A stretch of 64,000 bases of DNA from Nitrospira japonica (lineage in GTDB: Bacteria; Nitrospirota; Thermodesulfovibrionia; Thermodesulfovibrionales; SM23-35): assembly GCA_020725385.1 (NCBI GenBank), contig DYFC01000017.1:9055-73054 (forward strand), given 5' to 3'. Under the pieces are notes generated by a model that did no database searches, was not told the DNA's origin, and saw only the letters and a list, made by a program, of their open reading frames with translations. The translations under genes were made by a program, and so were the position numbers. Positions 20,702 to 36,175 of the stretch are shown here, piece by piece (positions within the stretch are counted from its first letter, which is position 1; each line of letters opens with the position of its first letter).

Positions 20702-20849
20702 GGGGCCGGGGTATGACTTTACAGAATCATAGAGGAGGTGAGAAAGACGGTGTTTTAAGTAAAAATTCCCATTTTTTCTCTATGTTATAAAGTAATTCTT
20801 TATTTCTCCTCGATAAATTTGTCATAACAACCAGCCTGTTAAATATTCC

Positions 20850-21025
20850 CACCCTGCCGTGTAAAGCGAAATTAGATCCCATTTTTGTTATAAGTGGGTG
20901 CCCTGAAAGGACCCGTAGGCTTCCCAGTATTAAACAGGGCATGCACAAAAGGCCTTTACACAGGCTCCCTAAAGATCTAATTTGCCGGATCAACATGTTC
21001 GCCTTATCACTAACAGGGCAGGTAA
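20850..21025. ncRNA. Candidate structured RNA / GC-rich element of unknown class
   Basis: Locally GC-rich island in an AT-rich spacer. Complementary pairs: 20856..20866 with 20954..20965 (11 bp, 1 bulge); 20869..20878 with 20974..20983 (10 bp); 20899..20905 with 20935..20941 (7 bp). The strand is not determined. Confidence 0.25.
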
Positions 21026-21129
21026 TTTATTACCCTGAAATATATTCCTCCTGAATTAATTAATTTTATTCTTAGATTTAGAATATACTATAAAAGGGTT
21101 TTAAGGCAAGAAGAAAATTTTAAAATTAA

Positions 21130-26639: not shown

Positions 26640-28505
26640 TTAAAAACTAAAACTCATGCCCGCTGAAAATTGAACAGGCGGCATTGGATAATCTTTAAGA
26701 ATCTCGAAATTTCTATCAAATATATTTTTACCTATGACAAAGATTTCTGTAGGAATCTTCCAGATATCTAATTTTTGAGCAATTTTCCCGTCGAGCAAGA
26801 AATAGCAACCCGGATCTCCTTTCTCTACTTTATAACGATGTATGTAACTTCCTTCAAAAGCAATAGTATTTCCCTTGAAAGGATGCAGGGAAACATTTCC
26901 TTTAATCTGATGGCGGGTGCTAAAGCGTATTTTTTTGTCTGAAGTTCTATCCTGAGGGTCCATAAAAGTATAGCTTAACCCGATGTCAAGATAATCAAGG
27001 TGTAAGCTACTTTCTGTTTCAAATCCAGCAACACGTGTTTTTGCAATATTCACAGGAGACCATTTGAAAGGGCTAATTTCCTGCCATTGGATAAGGTCTT
27101 TTGATTGTTTAATAAATCCAACTGCTTTTATATTTGCAATCTTTCCGAAGAATTTATTTATATTTACCTCAAATTCTGTTGACTTTTCCGGTTTTAAATC
27201 CGGATTACCCTCAGCCCATCCAGTATCAGGCCAGTAAAGAGCATTCATTTCAGGAATACGGAATCCCTGTCCTATAGAGAAAGAAAGATTTGTCTCGTAC
27301 GGGAGTTTTATTAATAAAGAAGCTTTCGGGCTGAACCTATCCTCTGATGAAATGGAATCATATCTTAGCCCGAGAGTCAATATTAAATATTTTTTCAAAG
27401 AAGTTTCATTTTGAAGGAATATCCCTTTTCTTGTTCTGCTATGTCTTCCAATTGACTCATTTTCATTAATATTGTTAGTGCTATCAATATCCTCTTCGAG
27501 AACTTCAATTCCACCTGTCAAGAGATTCATTGAGCCTAAAGAAAGACTATGCTGAAGATCAAATCCAAGAACATGGTTTTTATGAGTATTATCTTCAAGA
27601 CCTGGATTCATATAATCAATTGTTGAGTTGTGACTGTAAAATTTCATGATAGAATCTTTATATTTAATATTAATCCCGGCAAGAAAATTCTTGTCTTTTT
27701 CGTTTGCTTTTGGTGTTGGCCATGATAATGAACCCGGAGAGCCAGCGTCTCTGAAATTATAATCAAAGGAAATATCTGTTCTAATGTCTTTAGAAATATC
27801 ATAGGTTATTTTAACGCTTGCGGATTCTGAATCATATTCACTATTTTCTCTAAAACCGGCTGAGGAATTTTTTGATAGAGAAAGATAGAAACCAGCGTTT
27901 CTTATGCGTTGTGATGTATTAAAATTCAAGTCTTTTGTAACAAATCTACCATATGATGCTGAGATACTTGTCTTTGGAGTTTCAGGTATTTTTGTAATGA
28001 TATTTATAACACCTCCCATAGCATCCGCACCATATAATGCTGATGAAGCTCCACGCAATATCTCTATTCTTTCTATATTATCAACCGGTATTGAAAGAGC
28101 GTTTATGTCAACCTGTCCATCGCCCGGCTTGTTAAGTCTCTTACCATCAATAAGCACAAGAACCTGTGCTGAAGTTGAAGACCTCAGACTTACACTCGAT
28201 GATGAACCTTTATTACCATATTCAAAGAAAGTTAAACCTGTAATGTTCCTTAGAATCTCGGATATATTTGTATAACTGCTATTTTCAATTTCCTTTTTTG
28301 TTATAACAGTAACATCCTGTGGAATATCCTCAATTGATTCCTCAATTTTTGTTGCAATAACAACAATCTCCTCAAATGATACGACTTTTTCTTCTGCAGA
28401 TAAAGAAGTAATAAGTGAAAAGTAATAAGTGAGAAGTAAAGAAATGCAAATAATGAATTTTGAAAAGTGATGACTGATGACTGATGACTGATAACTTTTT
28501 TCCAT
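26640..28505 (-). CDS. btuB: TonB-dependent outer-membrane receptor, cobalamin/corrinoid type (riboswitch-controlled)
   Basis: TonB box-like EEIVVIATK, plug domain motifs, terminal aromatic F. GAGGGAGGA precedes ATG 28505 (the track TTG start at 28535 is unlikely). A cobalamin riboswitch lies directly upstream. Confidence 0.85.
   Translation of the reverse strand: MEKSYQSSVISHHFSKFIICISLLLTYYFSLITSLSAEEKVVSFEEIVVIATKIEESIEDIPQDVTVITKKEIENSSYTNISEILRNITGLTFFEYGNKGSSSSVSLRSSTSAQVLVLIDGKRLNKPGDGQVDINALSIPVDNIERIEILRGASSALYGADAMGGVINIITKIPETPKTSISASYGRFVTKDLNFNTSQRIRNAGFYLSLSKNSSAGFRENSEYDSESASVKITYDISKDIRTDISFDYNFRDAGSPGSLSWPTPKANEKDKNFLAGINIKYKDSIMKFYSHNSTIDYMNPGLEDNTHKNHVLGFDLQHSLSLGSMNLLTGGIEVLEEDIDSTNNINENESIGRHSRTRKGIFLQNETSLKKYLILTLGLRYDSISSEDRFSPKASLLIKLPYETNLSFSIGQGFRIPEMNALYWPDTGWAEGNPDLKPEKSTEFEVNINKFFGKIANIKAVGFIKQSKDLIQWQEISPFKWSPVNIAKTRVAGFETESSLHLDYLDIGLSYTFMDPQDRTSDKKIRFSTRHQIKGNVSLHPFKGNTIAFEGSYIHRYKVEKGDPGCYFLLDGKIAQKLDIWKIPTEIFVIGKNIFDRNFEILKDYPMPPVQFSAGMSFSF
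28403..28496 (-). repeat. Heptanucleotide repeats inside the btuB signal-peptide coding region
   Basis: Plus strand: gatgact x3 perfect (28469..28489) plus gataact; NNNAAGT x5 (28403..28437: aagaagt aataagt gaaaagt aataagt gagaagt). Confidence 0.85.
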
Positions 28506-28559
28506 TTTTCCTCCCTCGGGAAATAATTTATTCAAAGCATGTTGTTAGCTCTGAAATTT

Positions 28560-28812
28560 TAGTTTCTACTGATCTGGATAGGTCTTCCGGCTTCAGGCAA
28601 TTTTATGTTTCCTACTAACCTTCCTTCCCGGAGAAACCGTTCAAACCATTTAAGCAGTTAAAACAGTTCTACTCCAGTGGATTAAAGACAGTGATTGAGA
28701 TTCTTCTAATTCACTACCTCACTAATTTCTAATTTACTGTCTTTCCGGGTTTTCGTTCCATTCACGGCTGCGGGGCAGCGATGGCTTTCCACCATTCTTC
28801 CCTGAATCCAGA
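28560..28812 (-). promoter_or_regulatory. Cobalamin (AdoCbl-type) riboswitch 1
   Basis: Minus-strand reading contains agggaagaatggtggaaagccatcgctgccccgcagccgtga, then ccactggag, then a B12-box-like gaagccggaagacctatcc. Sits upstream of btuB. Confidence 0.85.
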
Positions 28813-28880
28813 TTTATTAATAATTACCTGAATACATAGACTTAATTTATATCACCTCCTTTCATGTAAATTTTGATTAA

Positions 28881-29666
28881 CTAAAAAACCCTGTACCATA
28901 TCAGAGTAAAAAACAAAAATAATAATTCCGAAATTTCGCTTATAGCACCGAGAGTATCTCCTGTAAGACCTCCAAATTGTTTATTAAACAAAATGATTGA
29001 TAATCTACAAAAAATATATATCAAAGAAATTAAAAGGCAGCAGAAGATGAAGTCCATAACTTGGAAGGAATGATAAAAAATTGTTTTTAAAGATAAAAAT
29101 AAAATAATGAAAAATAAGAGAGAGATAAGGACTTCTTTAAATTTTAATTTTCCTATAAACAGATTTCCCATGCCTTCTTGTCTTGCCGGTTTAGCTTGAA
29201 ACATCGAGATAATAATTGACAATTTAGAAAAAACGGGCATTAAAAGAATTGATGTGTAAAAAACTGATGAGGTATAAAGCATAAGATTCTTTATAGAAAG
29301 AAATTTCAAAAGCAATATAAAAAATATTGCTGTAACACCAATTGGTCCTGCTGTGCCCTCTTTCATAATGGATAGTTTTTTTTCTTTGTCACCATTCATT
29401 GCAATACCATCAAAAGTATCTGAAAGTCCATCAATATGAAAGCCAGCATTATATAAAACAGAAGTCATTAGAATAATTCCTGCAACTATCTCATTATCAA
29501 AGAGATGTTTGGTTACTAAATAAATCAAAATAAGAATTATGCCCTGAAATACGCCAACCGGAACAAATGCAATTGAGCATCTTGGAATCCCGGATTTTTC
29601 AATGCTTATATTTTTGTTTAATGGAATAATTGTTAAAAGCTGTAAAGCAACTATGAACGTTTTCAT
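28881..29666 (-). CDS. cobS: Adenosylcobinamide-GDP ribazoletransferase (cobalamin synthase)
   Basis: Polytopic membrane protein with the DGLSDTFDG motif. Overlaps cobT by 4 nt. Confidence 0.85.
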   Translation of the reverse strand: MKTFIVALQLLTIIPLNKNISIEKSGIPRCSIAFVPVGVFQGIILILIYLVTKHLFDNEIVAGIILMTSVLYNAGFHIDGLSDTFDGIAMNGDKEKKLSIMKEGTAGPIGVTAIFFILLLKFLSIKNLMLYTSSVFYTSILLMPVFSKLSIIISMFQAKPARQEGMGNLFIGKLKFKEVLISLLFFIILFLSLKTIFYHSFQVMDFIFCCLLISLIYIFCRLSIILFNKQFGGLTGDTLGAISEISELLFLFFTLIWYRVF

Positions 29667-30739
29667 TCCTGAACCTTTTTATTTGATACTCCAGCTTTAT
29701 CAAATGTAGCCATTTCTTTATATATCTTTAGTCCTGCTTCTATGATAGTTAACGCAAGTGCTGCGCCGGTACCTTCACCGAGTCTCAAATCAAGGTCAAG
29801 TATGGGCTTAATACCTATTTTTTCAAGAATAGCTTTATGACCCTTTTCAACAGAATTGTGTGCGGCAAACATGTAATCTTTTGTATTTGATTCAATCGAA
29901 TAGGCGATAAGAGCACCTGCTGTTGAGATAAAGCCATCTATAACAACAGGTATTTTCTTTGCAGAAGCACCTAATATAAGACCTGCAATGCCTCCAATTT
30001 CAGCTCCTCCGACTTTTGAGAGAATGTCAATTGGATCAGTAATGTCAGGCTTATTAATTAAAATTGCTTTTTCTATTATTTCACATTTTTTTCTTAATGT
30101 AATATTATCAATTCCAGTGCCTCTGCCTGTTACTCCATAAATCGGTTTGCCTGTTAATAAAGAAGCAATTGCAGATGATGGTGTTGTATTCCCAATTCCC
30201 ATTTCACCTGTGCAGAAAATGTTATAGCCTTCATTTGCATATTCAATTGCAATCTCTATTCCTGTCTCTATACACTTTATAGCTTCATCCCTTGTCATAG
30301 CAGGATAATTCTTAATGTTTTTAGTGCCATAGATAACTTTTCTTGTAATAAAATGGCAATTTTCGGAAATATATATGGATTTCTCAAAGTCATACTTAAC
30401 TCCCAAATCAATGACAACAACATCCGCGCCTGCATGTTTTGCAAGAACATTTATACCCGCTCCGCCATTAATAAAGTTAAAGATCATTTGTTTTGTAACT
30501 TCTTGTGGATATGCACTTACTCCTTCTTCTGCAACTCCATGGTCACTCGCAAAAATGAAAATTGCTTTTTTATCCAATACTGGCATTGGATTTTCAGAGA
30601 TTACCACAAGTCTTTTTGCGAATTCCTCAAGTCTTCCAAGACTTCCTTGAGGCTTTGTTAGATTATCAAGATGTTCTTGAGCAATTTCACCAAATTTTGT
30701 ATTAACAGGTTTTATACTTTTAATTATTTTCTTAAGCAT
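29663..30739 (-). CDS. cobT: Nicotinate-nucleotide--dimethylbenzimidazole phosphoribosyltransferase
   Basis: KPQGSLGRLEE, GEMGIGNTT, LRLGEGTGA motifs. Confidence 0.9.
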   Translation of the reverse strand: MLKKIIKSIKPVNTKFGEIAQEHLDNLTKPQGSLGRLEEFAKRLVVISENPMPVLDKKAIFIFASDHGVAEEGVSAYPQEVTKQMIFNFINGGAGINVLAKHAGADVVVIDLGVKYDFEKSIYISENCHFITRKVIYGTKNIKNYPAMTRDEAIKCIETGIEIAIEYANEGYNIFCTGEMGIGNTTPSSAIASLLTGKPIYGVTGRGTGIDNITLRKKCEIIEKAILINKPDITDPIDILSKVGGAEIGGIAGLILGASAKKIPVVIDGFISTAGALIAYSIESNTKDYMFAAHNSVEKGHKAILEKIGIKPILDLDLRLGEGTGAALALTIIEAGLKIYKEMATFDKAGVSNKKVQE

Positions 30740-31277
30740 GGGTTCCCTTTATTTTTAATGGTATCCCGGCAATCATCATATATACTTCATCTGCAATTTC
30801 TGCAATGCTTTGATTCAATATTCCTAAATTGTCTCTAAATTTCCTTGCAAGTTTATTTTCAGGAACAATACCCGAACCAACCTCATTGGAGACAATAAAA
30901 ACTGTACAATAAAGAGAAGATAGAGTGTTACAAAGAGATTCTATATCCTTTTCAACATTCTTATTATTAAAAAAAAGATTAGAAAGCCAGAGAGTTAGAC
31001 AATCAATGACTATTACATTATATTTGTCTTTTATATTTTTGATTACATCTGAAATTTTAACCGGCTCTTCATATGTATCCCATTCATTACCTCTTTGCTT
31101 TTTATGTTTTTCTATCCTCTCTTTCATTTCCTCATCCTGTATGGGAGTATCGCCATACGTCCATATCGCTGTTGCAATAAATGCTTTATTTCCCAAAATC
31201 TTTGATGCTTCTTTCAAAGCAAAAGTGCTTTTACCACTTCTTGCTCCGCCTGTTATAAAAACTATTTTTTTATTCAT
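30732..31277 (-). CDS. cobU: Bifunctional adenosylcobinamide kinase / adenosylcobinamide-phosphate guanylyltransferase
   Basis: P-loop ITGGARSGKS, 181 aa, within the cob cluster. Confidence 0.85.
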   Translation of the reverse strand: MNKKIVFITGGARSGKSTFALKEASKILGNKAFIATAIWTYGDTPIQDEEMKERIEKHKKQRGNEWDTYEEPVKISDVIKNIKDKYNVIVIDCLTLWLSNLFFNNKNVEKDIESLCNTLSSLYCTVFIVSNEVGSGIVPENKLARKFRDNLGILNQSIAEIADEVYMMIAGIPLKIKGTHA

Positions 31278-31285
31278 CTTAGATT

Positions 31286-32086
31286 CTATACCCTTATAGA
31301 TTTTTTTCTGTCTTCCTCGTTGACTAAAAAAATATATGGTTTTGATGAAACCGGATTATTTCCGACAATCACGACAGTTTTATAAACTTCCTCAATAATC
31401 TGATAAGTCAATATTTCTTGAGGTGAACCGATTTTATGTATAAGGCCATTATTAAGCAGGATTATCCGGTCACAATATTCGCTGGCTAAATTAAGGTCAT
31501 GCAAAACTATTATTACAGTGAGTCCCGATTCTTTGTTCAATTTTCTTATAAGATCTAATATTTTTATCTGATGTGTTATATCAAGATGAGCTGTTGGCTC
31601 ATCTAATAAAAGTAGTTCAGGCTCCTGAGCCAATGCTCGTGCGATTGATATAAGTTGTTTTTCGCCACCGCTTATCTGATTTAGAAATTTATCTTTTAGT
31701 CTTATGGTGTCTGTTTGAAGCATACATTTTCTGACAACCTCATAATCTTTTTTTGTCTCTAAAAACTGAAATTTTTTGTAATGAGGGCTCCTGCCTAAAA
31801 GTATAAATTCTTCTACATTCATAAAATTAGGCTGGAGATTCTGGGTAACAACAGCTATTTTTTTAGACAATTCTTTATGAGTAATCTGCCAAATATTTTT
31901 CCCTTCAAAAATGACTTCTCCTTTTAGAGGTTTAATCAAGCGAGTTAATGCTTTTATTAATGTAGTCTTTCCAGAACCATTTGGACCGATTATGCCCAGA
32001 AGTTCCTTTTTATTGACATTAAAAGTTATATCTTTAAGTAAAAAATCTGAATTATATCCACATGTTAAATTTTTTATCTCAAACAT
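31286..32086 (-). CDS. btuD: ABC transporter ATP-binding protein (corrinoid/iron-siderophore type)
   Basis: Walker A GPNGSGKTT, signature SGGEKQ, Walker B LLLDEP. Confidence 0.85.
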   Translation of the reverse strand: MFEIKNLTCGYNSDFLLKDITFNVNKKELLGIIGPNGSGKTTLIKALTRLIKPLKGEVIFEGKNIWQITHKELSKKIAVVTQNLQPNFMNVEEFILLGRSPHYKKFQFLETKKDYEVVRKCMLQTDTIRLKDKFLNQISGGEKQLISIARALAQEPELLLLDEPTAHLDITHQIKILDLIRKLNKESGLTVIIVLHDLNLASEYCDRIILLNNGLIHKIGSPQEILTYQIIEEVYKTVVIVGNNPVSSKPYIFLVNEEDRKKSIRV

Positions 32087-33102
32087 TATTTTTCTCCGAA
32101 GAAAGCCGAACGTCTGGTAAGGGCATAAATAAAAAGGCTTCCGCCTAATATGCCGGTAATCACGCCGATTGGAAGTTCTACAGGTGAGATAATTGTTCTG
32201 GATAGCGTATCGCAGAAAATCAAAAAGCCTGCTCCAGAAAGAAAAGAACTTATTAAAACTATTTTGTGGTCTGTGCCTGCAAATATTCTGACAAAATGAG
32301 GTACAACAAGACCGACAAATCCGACCATGCCTGTAATAGAAACACTAAATCCTGTGAGAATGGAAGCCAAGAGGAAAAGTATTTTCTTAACCTTTTCTAC
32401 ATCTATACCAAGATGAGCTGCTTCTTCTTCACCTAATGAAATTGCGTTTAAATCCAGACAGAATAAGTAAGATATGAAAAGCCCGGAAATTGAGACAATA
32501 ACCATCAATTTTATTAGTAGCCAGTTCGGCTCTTCCAAAGAACCCATAACCCAGAAAACTATACTATGTAAATCTTCTGTACGGGATAAAGCCATAATCA
32601 GCATAATTAGAGATGAAGATATAAAGCTTATCATTACTCCGGTAAGTAGAATTTCGTGTATTTTAAAAACTTCTCTTTTCAAACTAAAAAAATAAAGTAA
32701 AACAATCACTGTAATTGCACCGGTAAACCCGCTTAATGGCAATGATAGAAAGCCTAATATTTCGTTTAACTTAAAAAGAATATTCAAGCATACTCCCAAT
32801 GCTGCTCCACCCGATATGCCAAGTGTATATGGTTCAACCAGTGGATTACGGAATATTCCCTGTAGAATAACACCTGCAAGACTTAATGCTCCTCCGGTAG
32901 CAAACCCTAAAATAATTCGTGGCAGGCGTATGTCGAAAATGATGCTGTATTCAGTGGTACACCTACTATATATAATAGAAGAAAAAATTTTTTTGGCAGG
33001 AATTCCTGATGAACCAACAGACAAAGAAAAAAGAATTATTACTGAAAGAATAATTCCTAAAATAAATAACCAGATAAGCCAATGTATTAATTTGTTTCTC
33101 AT
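32086..33102 (-). CDS. btuC: FecCD-family ABC permease
   Basis: About 10 TM segments. RLPRI and conserved G-rich motifs of FecCD/BtuC. Confidence 0.85.
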   Translation of the reverse strand: MRNKLIHWLIWLFILGIILSVIILFSLSVGSSGIPAKKIFSSIIYSRCTTEYSIIFDIRLPRIILGFATGGALSLAGVILQGIFRNPLVEPYTLGISGGAALGVCLNILFKLNEILGFLSLPLSGFTGAITVIVLLYFFSLKREVFKIHEILLTGVMISFISSSLIMLIMALSRTEDLHSIVFWVMGSLEEPNWLLIKLMVIVSISGLFISYLFCLDLNAISLGEEEAAHLGIDVEKVKKILFLLASILTGFSVSITGMVGFVGLVVPHFVRIFAGTDHKIVLISSFLSGAGFLIFCDTLSRTIISPVELPIGVITGILGGSLFIYALTRRSAFFGEK

Positions 33103-33938
33103 ATGTTTGGATGTAAGATATGAAATATTTCTTCCAATGTCTTAACAAAACTTACTGGAGTAGGGCTACAGAGTTTATTAGAATCGACAATGTAGATTCT
33201 ATTCTTTCTTATTGCATTTATAGTCTTATAATTTTGCCAGATTTTCTTTTCTTCTTCTCCAGCAATACCCATAGTAGCAATAATTATTACATCAGGGTTT
33301 TGTTTTAGTACTTCTTCTCGACTGTATATTCCCATTTCGTTGTTAGGACCAATATTTATCCCTCCTGCAAATTTAATAAAATCATCTATAAAAGAATCTT
33401 TTGGCGCTACCCATAAAGGTTTTGTGCCAATCTGTACAAGAACCTTTGTTTTTGGTAGATTCTTGACTTTATTTTGAATAGAGGATACATCTTTTTTAGC
33501 CTTATGAACTAGTTCCAGTGCCTTTTTTTCTTTTCCAACAATCCTGCCTAATTCAACAAATTGATTACATATCTCGTTGAAGCTTTTTGGTGCAGGAAAA
33601 GTAATTACCTTTATCCCCAGTCTTTTTAATTTTTCCTTAGCTTTTGGATTTATTAAAGACGTTGCAATAATTAAATCAGGATGAAGGCTTATTATCTTTT
33701 CAATGTTAACTTCTATTATATTGCCTATTTTTTCTATTTTCTGTGCTTCTTCCGGTCTATTACAATAAGTTGTAACGCCGACAAGTTTATCACCTCCACC
33801 CAAAAGAAAAAGTTGTTCTGTTATTGAAGGACATAAGGATATTATTCTTTGGGGATAAGTGGAACAAAAACCTATATTACAAATGCTAAACACAAAGATA
33901 ACTGTTATTAGTATTGGCATAATTATATATTTCTTCAT
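33099..33938 (-). CDS. btuF: Periplasmic corrinoid-binding protein (class III/cluster A SBP)
   Basis: Signal peptide, RIISLCPSITE, DLIIAT motifs typical of BtuF-like binding proteins. Confidence 0.8.
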   Translation of the reverse strand: MKKYIIMPILITVIFVFSICNIGFCSTYPQRIISLCPSITEQLFLLGGGDKLVGVTTYCNRPEEAQKIEKIGNIIEVNIEKIISLHPDLIIATSLINPKAKEKLKRLGIKVITFPAPKSFNEICNQFVELGRIVGKEKKALELVHKAKKDVSSIQNKVKNLPKTKVLVQIGTKPLWVAPKDSFIDDFIKFAGGINIGPNNEMGIYSREEVLKQNPDVIIIATMGIAGEEEKKIWQNYKTINAIRKNRIYIVDSNKLCSPTPVSFVKTLEEIFHILHPNI

Positions 33939-33959: not shown

Positions 33960-34634
33960 TTATATTTCAAATTTGCTCCGTCTATTTTTTCTAAGCTTTA
34001 AGAACCAGTGTTTATCTTTTAAAACTTTTTCACCAGCTGTAAACTCAATAGTATTTTTAAAAATAGGGCCGTCATAAACAAAAGTATGATATTCACCTCT
34101 TTCGCCGCAAAGATCTACATTCAATAAAGCTTTTAAATCATCGATAAAACTTCCATCAATTTCGCGTCCTAACCAATCTTTATCTAGAAACTCAGAATTA
34201 GTAGCCACTATTATGGCTTTGAACCCTACGTCAATAAATTCATTAAGCAATTTTATTCTTTTTTCTTTCCATAAAGGCAAAATTGGCTTTATATTTATTT
34301 CTTTACAAACCCTTTCTACCCAATCTCTGTGCTCCTGAAGGTCAATATCTCCGAATATACCCGCTTCAATGCCATTTTTTTCTAAATTATAAACAGCTTT
34401 TTTGAATTCTTCTTCGTAATTTTTCCACGAAGTCTTTCTCTGAATAATGGATAATCCTATTGCTTCTGCCTGTGCTCTCAATAAATCAGAGCCAATTCCG
34501 TGAGAACGGGAACGATTTCCATCCTCTGTAGCCATATTTAAAAGGTATTTAATCTCGACTTTACCGAGATTCTTTGCCCTATAAAAGGCTAATGATGTAT
34601 CTTTGCCGCCGCTCCATGAAATAAATGCTTTCAT
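33960..34634 (-). CDS. PP-loop ATP pyrophosphatase of the Dph6/MJ0570 (ATP_bind_4) family
   Basis: MKAFISWSGGKDTS PP-loop at the N-terminus. ATG 34634 lies 1 nt after the stop of the upstream gene (the track start at 34661 is less likely). Confidence 0.7.
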   Translation of the reverse strand: MKAFISWSGGKDTSLAFYRAKNLGKVEIKYLLNMATEDGNRSRSHGIGSDLLRAQAEAIGLSIIQRKTSWKNYEEEFKKAVYNLEKNGIEAGIFGDIDLQEHRDWVERVCKEINIKPILPLWKEKRIKLLNEFIDVGFKAIIVATNSEFLDKDWLGREIDGSFIDDLKALLNVDLCGERGEYHTFVYDGPIFKNTIEFTAGEKVLKDKHWFLKLRKNRRSKFEI

Positions 34635-34635
34635 A

Positions 34636-35553
34636 TTATTTATTTCTCCAATCCAAAACATAACCGCATACCTTGCAGTGAAAAGCCGTAAGTTTCATTC
34701 CTGCTCCGCATCCCGGACATTCCTTCTGAGAATATTTTGGTCTGGGGATGTCTCCAATTTCTTTTCTATAAATCTCATAATAATAAAGGTGTTCCTTATT
34801 CAAAAAGTTTATGGGATATAGCTTTTTCTTTTCTTCAAACTCATCGTCAGAGATTTTTAATGAAATAATTTCTCTCAACTTAGTCATTCCCGAACCATAC
34901 TCAAGTGGCCTTTTATCCTGCCAGATAATTTCTGGCGGCAATGTATTTTCAAACGCTTTACGCAATATCCATTTGCCGAAGATTTTACCGTTATGTTTTT
35001 TTATTTTTGAATCAACAGGTATTTGTAAAGCAAAATCTATAATATCCTTATCCATAAAAGGTTGGATTATCTTAATTTTAAAAAACTTACCAATATTATT
35101 AGAGCTAAAACTCATGTTTCTTGAGATTCTTTTGATATAATTTTCTAAATCATTTATATCTTTCATAAAAGAATATCCGCCAAATAACTCGTCACTTCCA
35201 TCACCTGTTGCTACTTCATCTAATCCTAAATTTTTAGCTAACTCAAGGCCAAAGTAAACCACTAAATCATTTGGTAAGGCAGGGTCAAAAGATTTCAATA
35301 TTTTTATTACTTCTGGAATTTTTTCTATTGCCTCATTTACTCTTACCTTCCTCATGATGTGTTTAATATTAAGAAAACTTGCCAGAGATTTTGAATAATG
35401 GACATCTTCTCCATCAGATTCTAAATTTACTGTAATAGCTGTGATTTTAGGATTAATAACTGCTAAAATTGAAGTATCCAAACCACCAGAAAAAAGCAAA
35501 CATTTATAGGAGTTTTTTCTTACTATTTCAGAAATTACTGTCTTTAAAAACAC
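34636..35553 (-). CDS. Asparagine-synthetase-like PP-loop adenylating enzyme (synthetase domain only) with C-terminal zinc ribbon
   Basis: LLFSGGLDTS PP-loop, ATGDGSDELFGGY motif, no N-terminal glutaminase domain, C-terminal CPGCG...CKVCG. GTG start with AAGGAG 9 nt upstream. Confidence 0.7.
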   Translation of the reverse strand: MFLKTVISEIVRKNSYKCLLFSGGLDTSILAVINPKITAITVNLESDGEDVHYSKSLASFLNIKHIMRKVRVNEAIEKIPEVIKILKSFDPALPNDLVVYFGLELAKNLGLDEVATGDGSDELFGGYSFMKDINDLENYIKRISRNMSFSSNNIGKFFKIKIIQPFMDKDIIDFALQIPVDSKIKKHNGKIFGKWILRKAFENTLPPEIIWQDKRPLEYGSGMTKLREIISLKISDDEFEEKKKLYPINFLNKEHLYYYEIYRKEIGDIPRPKYSQKECPGCGAGMKLTAFHCKVCGYVLDWRNK

Positions 35554-35567
35554 TGGTCCAAGCTCCT

Positions 35568-35690
35568 TTAGTTATTATGGCAATTTTCTATTGGCAAAAT
35601 TAGGAAGAAAAAATTGAAAAGTAATTTAATACAGATAATAAAGTTAGAAAACCCGAAGCTTAAAACTGAAAATTGAAAACTTATTTTCAT
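35568..35690 (-). CDS. Leader mini-ORF: relic of a btuB-type signal peptide
   Basis: My translation: MKISFQFSVLSFGFSNFIICIKLLFNFFFLILPIENCHNN*. It aligns with the btuB N-terminus MEKSYQSSVISHHFSKFIICISLLL. GAGGGAG SD. Its TAA stop overlaps the SD (TAAAGGAG) of the next gene. Confidence 0.35.
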   Translation of the reverse strand: MKISFQFSVLSFGFSNFIICIKLLFNFFFLILPIENCHNN

Positions 35691-35759
35691 CTTTTCTCCC
35701 TCGAGAAAATTTTCAGGTTGTTTGTCCAAGTTTTAAAGTTCTTTTTAAACTTTTAACTT

Positions 35760-35997
35760 GGAACTTTTTGCTCTGGATAGGTCTTCCGGCTTAGGGCAGT
35801 TTAATTTCTTTTCTACTAACCCGCCTTCCCGGAGAAACCGTTCAAACTGTTCAATCAGTTCTAACAGTCTTACTCCAGTGGCTTAAAGACAGTGATTGAA
35901 ATTCTTCTAATTCACTGTTTTCCCGGGTTTTCGTTCCCATCACGGCTGCGGGGCAGCGGGAGAATTGCCATTGGCTCACTCCTCTTCCCTGACTTCC
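35760..35997 (-). promoter_or_regulatory. Cobalamin (AdoCbl-type) riboswitch 2, paralog of riboswitch 1
   Basis: Minus-strand reading contains cagggaagaggagtgagccaatggcaattctcccgctgccccgcagccgtga, then gccactggag, then taagccggaagacctatcc. Long stretches are near-identical to 28560..28812. Confidence 0.85.
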
Positions 35998-36175
35998 GAA
36001 TATTTTATAACATATCACACAGATAATTTTCAATTGAAAAGCGAATAGCGTAGAGCGAAGAGCAAAGAGAAAAAAATTTATAACTCGATACACGAAACTG
36101 AAAATTAGCTAACTGTAAAAAAGTTGTTAGTAATCTGTATGGAACGGATATGGAGAAAGGACACTGCTAACGGAT

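What the first reader, a model, noticed from the sequence alone, without database searches (positions are those of the whole stretch)
33960..35553. Two PP-loop ATP-pyrophosphatase (amidoligase-type) enzymes are the first genes of the B12-riboswitch-controlled salvage operon
Directly behind riboswitch 2, and ahead of btuFCD-cobUTS, lie two genes. The first is a 305-aa asparagine-synthetase-like synthetase domain (SGGLDTS PP-loop, no glutaminase domain, C-terminal Zn ribbon). The second is a 224-aa Dph6/MJ0570-family protein (SWSGGKDTS). The two are 1 nt apart and tightly packed with the transport genes.

Both families activate a carboxylate by adenylation and usually amidate it with ammonia (asparagine synthetase; diphthine-ammonia ligase). 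The canonical corrin amidases CbiA and CbiP belong to a different family, and neither protein matches a standard cobalamin salvage step that I know.

Hypothesis: they re-amidate or otherwise ligate carboxylate side chains of scavenged, partly deamidated or incomplete corrinoids, or attach a non-standard linker. That would be a new branch of corrinoid remodelling.
Basis: inference. Interest (0 to 1): 0.7.

Follow-up and report, generated by a model that had tools for sequence, protein, structure and literature searches.

The report
Two uncharacterised ATP-dependent ligases for B12 salvage
Two adenylate-forming enzymes of untested function lead a riboswitch-controlled vitamin B12 salvage operon; one was tied to B12 by a 2012 prediction, and the other belongs to an undescribed family found with B12 genes in bacteria and archaea and in B12-using eukaryotes.

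Summary
A cobalamin riboswitch (36034-35759, minus strand) precedes a tightly packed eight-gene operon. It opens with a 305-aa asparagine-synthetase-like synthetase domain ("AsnBL": PP-loop, no glutaminase domain, C-terminal zinc ribbon). One nucleotide later comes a 224-aa DUF71/Dph6-like protein, then btuFCD and cobUTS.

The linkage to B12 is conserved.
- All 80 fetched AsnBL loci, out of 417 species genomes that encode a relative, carry B12 salvage genes on the same strand.
- 64 of them carry the DUF71 gene.
- 12 of 14 sampled loci have an upstream cobalamin riboswitch.
- An archaeal cluster keeps the pair at 33% identity.

The DUF71 half is not new. De Crécy-Lagard et al. (2012) defined a "DUF71-B12" subgroup, and the window protein carries its signature motif (ERGEYH).

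The AsnBL half turned up in none of ten literature searches. AsnBL is fused to the cobalamin-processing protein CblC/MMACHC across oomycetes. It is fused to CobY in Thermoprotei archaea. It stands alone in non-Dikarya, B12-using fungi.

Best reading, inferred and not shown: both enzymes adenylate corrinoid carboxylates and amidate them with ammonia, which would repair or complete scavenged corrinoids. Biochemistry is untested.

The parts
35759..36034 (-). Cobalamin riboswitch aptamer, 205 nt upstream of the first gene of the operon
   Evidence: Rfam RF00174, 48.7 bits against a gathering score of 31.5, full model 1-189. No expression platform could be defined.
34636..35553 (-). AsnBL: a 305-aa asparagine-synthetase-like synthetase domain. 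It has the PP-loop SGGLDTS, no glutaminase domain, and a C-terminal CxxC...CxxC zinc ribbon.
   Evidence: Pfam Asn_synthase 2.2e-32. It aligns to AsnB profile positions 232-504 only and scores below all NCBIfam cut-offs. The AlphaFold2 model has pLDDT 89 and best matches the AsnB C-terminal domain 1ct9, TM 0.74. Invariant residues are listed.
33960..34634 (-). DUF71-B12-type PP-loop ATP pyrophosphatase (Dph6/MJ0570 fold), 224 aa. Its start lies 1 nt after the AsnBL stop.
   Evidence: PF01902 4.7e-59. It carries CGERGEYHTFV, the DUF71-B12 signature, instead of the Dph6 motif EGG[ED]xE. The AlphaFold2 model has pLDDT 90 and matches PH1257/PF0828, TM 0.83.
33099..33938 (-). BtuF-like periplasmic corrinoid-binding protein
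   Evidence: Pfam Peripla_BP_2 2.4e-35
32086..33102 (-). BtuC-like ABC permease
   Evidence: Pfam FecCD 2.2e-91
31286..32086 (-). BtuD-like ABC ATPase
   Evidence: Pfam ABC_tran 1.5e-33
30732..31277 (-). CobU, cobinamide kinase / cobinamide-phosphate guanylyltransferase
   Evidence: Pfam CobU 2.1e-58
29663..30739 (-). CobT, lower-ligand phosphoribosyltransferase
   Evidence: Pfam DBI_PRT 5.1e-136
28881..29666 (-). CobS, cobalamin-5'-phosphate synthase. Last gene of the operon.
   Evidence: Pfam CobS 5.3e-44
28560..28826 (-). Second cobalamin riboswitch aptamer, ahead of the outer-membrane receptor gene
   Evidence: Rfam RF00174, 48.1 bits
26640..28535 (-). BtuB-like TonB-dependent outer-membrane receptor
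   Evidence: Pfam Plug 2.8e-29 and TonB_dep_Rec_b-barrel 2.4e-38

Best explanation
Both genes encode enzymes dedicated to corrinoid salvage.

Proposed sequence of events:
1. When B12 is scarce the riboswitch lets the operon be expressed.
2. BtuB and BtuFCD import whatever corrinoids are available.
3. AsnBL and the DUF71-B12 protein each bind ATP at their PP-loop and adenylate a free carboxylate on the imported corrinoid, releasing PPi.
4. The acyl-adenylate is resolved with free ammonia into an amide. Neither protein has a glutaminase domain.
5. Under-amidated or deamidated corrinoids are thereby completed or repaired before CobU, CobT and CobS attach the lower ligand.

Two different enzyme families suggest two different side-chain positions or substrate classes. 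Each gene also occurs without the other elsewhere, so the two are not an obligate complex.

What is shown: the family membership, the intact adenylation motifs, the conserved genomic and fusion links to corrinoid handling in three domains of life, and riboswitch aptamers upstream of the clusters.

What is inferred: that the substrate is a corrinoid carboxylate, and that the nucleophile is ammonia.
For: Adenylation machinery is intact.
- AsnBL keeps SGGLD, TGDGSDE and the lysine equivalent to AsnB K449 (QDK214RPLE), all invariant across 24 sequences from different phyla.
- DUF71 keeps SGGKD.
- Both models are confident and match the AsnB synthetase domain and archaeal Dph6 folds.

Conserved context.
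- All 80 AsnBL loci, from Nitrospirota, Omnitrophota, Desulfobacterota, Elusimicrobiota, Firestonebacteria and other phyla, carry B12 salvage genes on the same strand.
- DUF71 is present in 64 of the 80 (72 have room downstream) and lies immediately downstream in 46.
- Riboswitches lie upstream in 12 of 14 sampled loci.
- An archaeal cluster at 33% identity reads btuFCD-AsnBL-DUF71-cobD-cbiB-cbiZ-cobS-cobY.

Fusions.
- CblC/MMACHC-AsnBL occurs throughout oomycetes.
- CobY-AsnBL occurs in Thermoprotei, next to cobS.
- AsnBL is also fused to the PF04071 domain found on archaeal CobD.

Eukaryotic distribution.
- Stand-alone AsnBL with the zinc ribbon occurs in non-Dikarya fungi. These are the fungal lineages that use cobalamin (PMC8085122).
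- These eukaryotes use finished cobalamin and are not known to build nucleotide loops (my knowledge). That favours a reaction on the corrin periphery over one on the linker.

Other points.
- No CbiA or CbiP gene lies in any of the 80 loci.
- Asparagine synthetase, NAD synthetase and Dph6 all amidate a carboxylate through an acyl-adenylate (established family chemistry).
Against: - No substrate evidence exists. Nothing here distinguishes ammonia from another amine, or a corrinoid from another carboxylate.
- Thermodesulfovibrio yellowstonii has DUF71-B12 next to a canonical CbiP and no AsnBL. DUF71-B12 is therefore not simply a CbiP substitute.
- In DUF71-B12 the catalytic-site Glu of Dph6 is replaced by His. 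The 2012 authors read this as a change in the reaction.
- In 17 of 80 loci a peptide precursor (CbpA) with its radical-SAM maturase (CbpB where the contig reaches it) sits directly after AsnBL, in most of them between it and DUF71. That hints at a peptide substrate.
- Whether deamidated corrinoids are abundant enough in nature to select for such enzymes is not established here.
Confidence: 0.4

Rival explanations
1. Nucleotide-loop remodelling. One or both enzymes act on the f-side chain. They might ligate aminopropanol, aminopropanol-phosphate or another linker to cobyric acid, as a soluble bypass of or helper for CbiB. Or they might provide the CbiZ-equivalent route for pseudo-B12 salvage proposed in 2012.
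For: - The pair sits directly after cbiB-cobD in about half of the loci (CbiB in 41 of 80, CobD in 43 of 80).
- CobY-AsnBL fusions lie next to cobS.
- AsnBL is fused to the PF04071 domain that archaeal CobD carries.
- Locus L017 has CbiZ but no CbiB or CobD within 10 kb either side.
- The 2012 phyletic argument points the same way.
Against: - CbiZ lies beside the pair in 8 of 80 bacterial loci and in the archaeal cluster. The 'strict anticorrelation' behind the CbiZ-replacement idea therefore does not hold.
- CbiB co-occurs with the pair, so the pair does not replace it.
- A PP-loop ligase acting as an amidohydrolase has no precedent, as a reviewer of the 2012 paper noted.
- Oomycetes and early-diverging fungi carry AsnBL although they are not known to have any loop-assembly pathway (my knowledge).
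Confidence: 0.2
2. Peptide or protein modification. The two enzymes modify a protein or ribosomal peptide involved in corrinoid handling rather than the corrinoid itself. Candidates are the CbpA peptide or a B12-binding protein. The chemistry would be macrolactam formation or side-chain or C-terminal amidation.
For: - Dph6 amidates a protein side chain, and AsnB-like lasso-peptide and macrolactam cyclases act on peptides. AsnBL has weak NCBIfam hits to these at 7e-10 and 5e-8.
- CbpA (TIGR04164) is found in 17 of 80 loci, directly after AsnBL and upstream of DUF71 in nearly all. Its maturase CbpB (TIGR04163, 2.8e-202 for the L003 example) is detected in 14 of them.
- The zinc ribbon could mediate contacts with a macromolecule.
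Against: - 63 of 80 loci, and the window itself, have no CbpA-like peptide.
- The fusion partners CblC and CobY are small-molecule corrinoid enzymes.
- Residues predicted to bind EF-2 in Dph6 are replaced in DUF71-B12.
Confidence: 0.1
3. A non-corrinoid small-molecule carboxylate tied to loop assembly. Examples are nicotinate released by CobT from NaMN, or a precursor of the lower ligand.
For: - CobT is present in 52 of 80 loci.
- NAD synthetase, which amidates a nicotinate-derived carboxylate, is a PP-loop relative. AsnBL homologues have weak NAD_synthase hits.
Against: - The CblC fusion, and the presence in fungi and oomycetes, which are not known to have CobT, argue against it (my knowledge).
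- The tightest synteny is with btuFCD and cbiB-cobD rather than with cobT.
Confidence: 0.05
4. Unrelated housekeeping enzymes, such as asparagine synthesis or tRNA modification, that are co-transcribed by accident.
For: Public annotation calls them 'asparagine synthase' and 'diphthine--ammonia ligase'.
Against: - Synteny with B12 genes holds in all 80 loci across many phyla and in archaea.
- The fusions point to corrinoid enzymes.
- Scores are far below the equivalog cut-offs: 137 against 499 for AsnB, and 132 against 197 for Dph6.
- Bacteria lack diphthamide.
Confidence: 0.02

Closest known systems
DUF71-B12 subgroup of the DUF71/COG2102 (MJ0570, Dph6) family, de Crécy-Lagard et al. 2012, Biol Direct 7:32
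   Same: Gene 2 has the PF01902 fold, the SGGKD PP-loop and the subgroup signature E-x-G-E-Y-H in place of the Dph6 motif EGG[ED]xE. It sits next to btuFCD, as 75 of the paper's 102 members sit next to B12 transporter genes such as btuCDF.
   Different: - Nothing separates gene 2 from that subgroup. The paper's function (a stand-in for CbiZ) was tentative and remains untested.
- The 'strict anticorrelation' with bacterial CbiZ that the paper reported fails in 8 of 80 loci here.
- The paper does not report the conserved AsnB-like partner.
Asparagine synthetase B (AsnB/ASNS), C-terminal synthetase domain
   Same: AsnBL shares the fold (TM 0.74 to 1ct9), the PP-loop SGGLDxS, the motif xGDGSDE-FGGY and the conserved lysine. 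The expected chemistry is carboxylate adenylation followed by amide formation.
   Different: - AsnBL has no N-terminal glutaminase domain and no ammonia tunnel.
- It has an added C-terminal zinc ribbon.
- It is only 26% identical and scores far below the equivalog cut-off.
- Its context is always B12 salvage and never amino-acid metabolism.
Glutaminase-inactive AsnB-like ligases: beta-lactam synthetase, carbapenam synthetase, lasso-peptide cyclases
   Same: These are AsnB-type synthetase domains that have been re-purposed to form an amide on a substrate other than aspartate without using glutamine. They are structural matches (TM 0.60-0.64).
   Different: - Those enzymes keep a degenerate N-terminal domain and form intramolecular amides.
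- AsnBL lacks that domain altogether.
- Sequence matches are weak.
CbiA/CobB and CbiP/CobQ, the canonical corrin side-chain amidotransferases
   Same: They carry out the proposed kind of reaction: ATP-dependent amidation of corrin acetate and propionate side chains.
   Different: - They are an unrelated fold, a MinD-like P-loop ATPase with a GATase_3 domain (seen in L085).
- They depend on glutamine and activate the carboxylate with ATP yielding ADP and phosphate (my knowledge).
- They are absent from all 80 AsnBL loci.
CbiZ and CbiR cobamide-remodelling enzymes
   Same: They are accessory enzymes encoded in salvage clusters that act on imported corrinoids before the loop is reassembled.
   Different: - They are hydrolases that use no ATP.
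- CbiZ co-occurs with the pair instead of replacing it.

Membership tests
Asparagine synthetase B (glutamine-hydrolysing) | N-terminal class II (Ntn) glutamine amidotransferase domain | tested here: not met
   The protein is 305 aa and aligns only to positions 232-504 of the 554-position AsnB profile. No GATase Pfam hit.
Asparagine synthetase B (glutamine-hydrolysing) | Synthetase domain with the PP-loop SGGxDS and the catalytic motifs | tested here: met
   SGGLDTS at residues 22-28. TGDGSDELFGGY and K214 align to the AsnB motif SGEGSDEVFGGY and to K449. Fold TM 0.74 to 1ct9.
Asparagine synthetase B (glutamine-hydrolysing) | Score above the curated equivalog cut-off | tested here: not met
   NF006949: 137.4 bits against a cut-off of 499. 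TIGR01536: 92.8 against 267.1.
Dph6 diphthine-ammonia ligase | PF01902 / MJ0570-type PP-loop fold | tested here: met
   PF01902 4.7e-59. Model TM 0.83 to PH1257 and PF0828.
Dph6 diphthine-ammonia ligase | C-terminal EGG[E/D]xE motif with the catalytic-site Glu (E188 of PF0828) | tested here: not met
   The window protein has ERGEYH. The His is invariant in 24 homologues.
Dph6 diphthine-ammonia ligase | Score above the curated cut-off, and an organism that makes diphthamide | tested here: not met
   TIGR03679: 131.9 bits against 197.3. Bacteria lack diphthamide (PMC3541065).
DUF71-B12 subgroup (de Crécy-Lagard 2012) | Signature ENGE[F/Y]H replacing EGG[E/D]xE | tested here: met
   CGERGEYHTFV in the window protein. 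Homologues read E[K/R/N/A/E]GEYH. The second position varies. The Gly-Glu-Tyr-His core is invariant.
DUF71-B12 subgroup (de Crécy-Lagard 2012) | Physical clustering with btuFCD or cbiB | tested here: met
   btuF starts 21 nt downstream in the window. DUF71 is next to salvage genes in 64 loci.
Cobalamin-riboswitch regulon | RF00174 aptamer above the gathering score, upstream on the same strand | tested here: met
   48.7 bits in the window. Present in 12 of 14 related loci. Actual regulation was not tested.
CbiA/CbiP corrin amidotransferases | CbiA-type P-loop ATPase domain plus a GATase_3 domain | tested here: not met
   Neither protein has a PF01656 or PF07685 hit. A true CbiP is seen in L085.
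Lasso-peptide / macrolactam cyclases (AsnB-like) | Score above the family cut-off, and an adjacent precursor peptide and protease | tested here: not met
   NF033535: 38 bits against 525. NF033561: 32 against 300. No peptide precursor in the window.
AsnBL family (defined here) | About 300-330 aa, glutaminase-less Asn_synthase domain, C-terminal CxxC...CxxC ribbon, B12-salvage context | tested here: met
   Enzymatic activity cannot be tested with these tools.

The most novel reading that the evidence does not exclude
AsnBL, with DUF71-B12 in prokaryotes, is a previously unrecognised corrinoid repair or completion amidoligase. It restores amide groups on deamidated or under-amidated corrinoids. 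It would be conserved from bacteria and archaea to B12-using eukaryotes, and physically fused to the cobalamin-processing chaperone CblC in oomycetes. That would add a new step to cobalamin salvage in prokaryotes and to intracellular cobalamin processing in eukaryotes.
Probability: 0.35. Interest if true: 0.85.

Novelty: new variant of a known kind. Interest (0 to 1): 0.62.

Why it matters
B12 salvage and remodelling decide which microbes can live on which corrinoids, and the pathway is considered nearly fully mapped. This operon carries two conserved ATP-dependent ligases, placed among or at the head of the salvage genes, that have no assigned step.

One has waited since 2012 for a test. The other appears undescribed. 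It occurs in at least 417 species genomes, in archaeal clusters, and in oomycetes and early-diverging fungi, where it is fused to or accompanies the cobalamin-processing machinery.

If they re-amidate corrinoid carboxylic acids, that would be a case of cofactor damage repair. It could explain how scavengers cope with degraded or incomplete corrinoids, which can act as antivitamins. It would also give a concrete and cheap biochemical assay.

Public annotation currently labels these proteins 'asparagine synthase' and 'diphthine--ammonia ligase'. Both names are almost certainly wrong for these proteins.

Tried and rejected
- Literature. The only prior art found is the 2012 DUF71 paper. Nothing was found on an AsnB-like partner, on CbpA/CbpB, or on CblC-AsnBL fusions. 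Subscription-only papers were not searchable.
- Curated families. Neither protein reaches any NCBIfam cut-off.
- Missing salvage genes in the window. I searched the 64-kb window for cbiB, cobD, cobC, btuR, cbiZ, cbiP, cbiC and CbpB. None was found.
- CbpA-like peptide in the window. None was found.
- ORF in the spacer. A 40-53-aa ORF lies between the aptamer and gene 1 (35568..35729). It was not pursued because the closest relatives have a different upstream gene.
- Expression platform. The fold of 35535-35775 is no better than shuffles (z = -0.51). The count of terminator-like sites is at chance and none lies in the spacer.
- AsnBL-DUF71 fusion proteins. None appear among the top 120 hits of either family or among the 150 listed representatives.
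- CbiP or CbiA in the 80 loci. None was found.
- Complete-genome phyletic profile. I could not build a profile of AsnBL and DUF71 against CbiA, CbiP, CbiZ and CbiB, because only one scan of the genome collection is allowed.
- Hypotheses rejected. I rejected 'the pair replaces CbiZ' because CbiZ lies beside the pair in 8 loci and in the archaeal cluster. I rejected 'accidental read-through' because the synteny holds in all 80 loci.
Full report
**Observation**

The minus strand of the window carries a Cobalamin riboswitch aptamer at 36034..35759 (Rfam RF00174, 48.7 bits against a gathering score of 31.5). A 205-nt spacer follows, and then eight genes with gaps or overlaps of 21 nt or less:

| Gene | Coordinates |
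|---|---|
| AsnBL, a 305-aa asparagine-synthetase-like protein | 35553..34636 |
| DUF71/Dph6-like protein, 224 aa | 34634..33960 |
| btuF | 33938..33099 |
| btuC | 33102..32086 |
| btuD | 32086..31286 |
| cobU | 31277..30732 |
| cobT | 30739..29663 |
| cobS | 29666..28881 |

A second aptamer (28826..28560) then precedes a TonB-dependent receptor gene (28535..26640). Pfam confirms every transport and loop-assembly assignment.

The junction reads AAA TAA T ATG.

I could not define the riboswitch expression platform. The spacer folds no better than shuffled sequence (z = -0.51) and holds no terminator-like site. Regulation is therefore inferred from position only.

**What the two proteins are**

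AsnBL matches Pfam Asn_synthase at 2.2e-32. It aligns only to the synthetase half of AsnB (profile positions 232-504 of 554), and its scores are far below the curated cut-offs (137 against 499).

- It keeps the PP-loop SGGLDTS.
- It keeps the motif TGDGSDELFGGY and a lysine that aligns with AsnB K449.
- It ends in a CxxC...HCxxC zinc ribbon that is invariant in 24 homologues.
- Its AlphaFold2 model (pLDDT 89) superposes best on the C-terminal domains of E. coli and human asparagine synthetase (TM 0.74-0.77). Beta-lactam and carbapenam synthetases come next.

The second protein matches PF01902 at 4.7e-59. Its model (pLDDT 90) superposes on the archaeal Dph6 structures PH1257 and PF0828 (TM 0.83). 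It is below the Dph6 cut-off (131.9 against 197.3). It also carries CGERGEYHTFV where Dph6 has EGG[E/D]xE.

**Prior art for the Dph6-like half**

De Crécy-Lagard et al. (Biol Direct 2012, PMC3541065) split the DUF71/COG2102 family into Dph6 and a 'DUF71-B12' subgroup.

- 75 of its 102 members lie next to B12 transporter genes such as btuCDF, and 18 lie next to cbiB.
- The subgroup is defined by ENGE[F/Y]H replacing EGG[E/D]xE.
- It was reported to be strictly anticorrelated with bacterial CbiZ.
- From that, the authors cautiously proposed a CbiZ-like role in pseudo-B12 salvage. A reviewer objected that PP-loop ligases are not known to act as hydrolases.

The window protein is a plain member of this subgroup. 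This half of the finding is therefore a known, still untested prediction.

I found no later experimental work. NCBIfam release 20 has no equivalog model for it.

**The AsnB-like half is a distinct, widespread, B12-linked family**

AsnBL has 1639 homologues at E of 1e-5 or better. The closest 120 are 60-84% identical across phyla, all about 300-350 aa, and none carries a glutaminase-domain hit.

A scan of one genome per GTDB species found relatives in 417 genomes. The best 80 loci were fetched, and I compared them by tblastn with the window's genes and with reference salvage genes.

- All 80 loci carry B12 salvage genes on the same strand as AsnBL.
- DUF71 is present in 64. Seventy-two loci have room downstream. 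It lies immediately downstream of AsnBL in 46.
- The typical order is cobC-cobU-cobT-cobS-cbiB-cobD-AsnBL-DUF71-btuF-btuC-btuD-btuR-btuB.
- Rfam finds a Cobalamin aptamer upstream, on the same strand, in 12 of 14 sampled loci.

A member at 33% identity sits in an archaeal-type cluster: btuFCD-AsnBL-DUF71-cobD(zf)-cbiB-cbiZ/pgpA-cobS-cobY, with cobT nearby.

Each gene can also occur without the other.

- Several loci have AsnBL alone between cobT and btuC.
- Thermodesulfovibrio yellowstonii has btuB-DUF71-cobT-cobS-cbiP-cbiB-cobD-cobU-btuF with no AsnBL.
- The DUF71-B12 family is about four times larger, with 7244 hits.

**New evidence on function**

1. CbiZ (Pfam 2.1e-53) lies right next to the pair in 8 of 80 bacterial loci and in the archaeal cluster. 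The anticorrelation that motivated the CbiZ-replacement idea therefore does not hold.

2. No CbiA or CbiP gene occurs in any of the 80 loci.

3. A search of 1.84 billion representative proteins shows the family extending to about 30% identity with the zinc ribbon retained. It also reveals fusions.
   - In Thermoprotei archaea the N-terminus is CobY. It matches PDB 3RSB and 2MZB (adenosylcobinamide-phosphate guanylyltransferase) at 9e-19, and the gene follows cobS.
   - In oomycetes the N-terminus is an MMACHC/CblC-like domain. It is weak in Pfam for Aphanomyces (4.5e-5). However, its only PDB matches are MMACHC (4e-4), and precomputed PF16690 hits exist in Saprolegnia, Achlya and Thraustotheca.
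   - One group fuses AsnBL to PF04071, the small Cys-rich domain that the archaeal CobD of L087 also carries.

4. The CblC-AsnBL fusion spans Aphanomyces, Saprolegnia, Achlya, Pythium, Globisporangium, Phytophthora and Lagenidium.

5. Stand-alone AsnBL with all motifs and the zinc ribbon occurs in Mortierellomycotina, Umbelopsis, Kickxellomycotina and many chytrids. No Dikarya appear among the 120 listed hits.
   - These are the fungal lineages reported to retain cobalamin-dependent enzymes and CblC/CblD, whereas Dikarya lost them (PMC8085122).
   - That paper does not mention this family.

**Mechanism**

*Shown.* Both proteins retain the ATP-pyrophosphatase machinery of families that adenylate a carboxylate and resolve it with ammonia. 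Neither has a glutaminase domain. Both are genomically, and AsnBL also physically, tied to corrinoid transport and processing in three domains of life.

*Inferred.* The substrate is a corrinoid carboxylate and the product an amide.

I favour amidation of peripheral side chains, meaning repair of deamidated corrinoids or completion of under-amidated ones. The reason is that the family is also found in eukaryotes that only use finished cobalamin and, to my knowledge, cannot rebuild the nucleotide loop. In oomycetes it is welded to the protein that holds incoming cobalamin. I put this at about 0.4.

Rival explanations:

| Rival | Main support | Main objection | Confidence |
|---|---|---|---|
| Linker ligation or remodelling on the f-side chain | cbiB-cobD adjacency; the CobY and PF04071 fusions | Co-occurrence with both CbiB and CbiZ; the eukaryotic distribution | 0.2 |
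| Peptide or protein modification | CbpA (TIGR04164) in 17 of 80 loci and its CbpB maturase (TIGR04163) in 14, directly after AsnBL | 63 loci and the window have no CbpA-like peptide | 0.1 |
| A non-corrinoid carboxylate such as nicotinate from the CobT reaction | CobT in 52 of 80 loci; weak NAD_synthase hits | CblC fusion; presence in fungi and oomycetes | 0.05 |
| Accidental co-transcription | Public annotation names | Synteny in all 80 loci | 0.02 |

**Novelty and verdict**

The Dph6-like half is an already published prediction. The AsnB-like half, its pairing with DUF71-B12, its fusions to CblC and CobY, and its distribution in B12-using eukaryotes were not found in any searchable literature. 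Together they make a new variant of a known kind: a PP-loop adenylating ligase recruited to corrinoid handling.

The decisive experiment is simple: ATP-PPi exchange and LC-MS with corrinoid carboxylic acids.

Noticed in passing
Related loci, e.g. L022:10922-11029, L023:7179-7286, L039:10942-11049; not in the window: A small basic peptide gene (CbpA, TIGR04164 'cobo_pep') occurs in 17 of 80 AsnBL loci. Its consensus is ...RKKCKAxGTGLSHY[VI]LLDKK. Its radical SAM/SPASM maturase (CbpB, TIGR04163) is detected in 14 of them. In nearly all loci the peptide gene lies directly after AsnBL, and in most it lies upstream of DUF71. Its function is unknown, and no paper on it was found.
   Followed up: partly
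Proteins P0328, P0403-P0425 (oomycetes); P0438-P0483 (fungi); P0516 (Pyropia): AsnBL is fused to a CblC/MMACHC-like domain throughout oomycetes. It stands alone in non-Dikarya fungi (Mortierellomycotina, Umbelopsis, Kickxellomycotina, chytrids). This matches the reported distribution of cobalamin use in fungi. No Dikarya appear among the 120 listed hits.
   Followed up: partly
L086:3152-4738 (P0264); P0487, P0497; P0494: Thermoprotei archaea encode a CobY-AsnBL fusion directly after cobS. Another group fuses AsnBL to the PF04071 Cys-rich domain that is also attached to the archaeal CobD in L087.
   Followed up: partly
L017:11595-12326; also L006, L013, L027, L032, L038, L040, L071; L087:11943-13073: CbiZ lies next to the AsnBL-DUF71 pair in 8 of 80 bacterial loci and in an archaeal cluster. 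This contradicts the strict anticorrelation between bacterial CbiZ and DUF71-B12 reported in 2012 from far fewer genomes.
   Followed up: yes
L023:9434-10168; L001:14291-14956; about 15 of the 80 loci: A small radical SAM protein of about 220-245 aa recurs inside the transport part of the cluster. In L001 it sits between two BtuF-like binding-protein genes. No specific family was assigned.
   Followed up: no
L085:8049-17659 (Thermodesulfovibrio yellowstonii): In this cultured relative, DUF71-B12 lies directly after btuB in a cluster that contains a canonical CbiP but no AsnBL. DUF71-B12 therefore also occurs together with a canonical corrin amidotransferase.
   Followed up: no
window 35568-35729 (-): A 40-53-aa hydrophobic ORF lies in the spacer between the aptamer and the AsnBL start. 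It has a GGGAGA Shine-Dalgarno-like sequence before an internal ATG. It is probably spurious in AT-rich sequence, but conservation could not be checked.
   Followed up: no
window 28560-28826 (-) and 35759-36034 (-): Both cobalamin aptamers are long (267 and 276 nt against a 189-position model) and score modestly (about 48 bits). Aptamers in related loci score 57-102 bits. They probably carry large insertions in peripheral helices.
   Followed up: no
window 20842-21027 (-): A 6S RNA gene (RF00013, 75.9 bits).
   Followed up: no
L087:3132-4184: A CN_hydrolase (nitrilase-superfamily) gene lies just upstream of the archaeal btuFCD-AsnBL-DUF71 cluster. The glutaminase domain of NAD synthetase belongs to that superfamily (my knowledge), so it could be an ammonia donor. 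This is a single case and the gene is separated from the cluster by a gene on the other strand.
   Followed up: no
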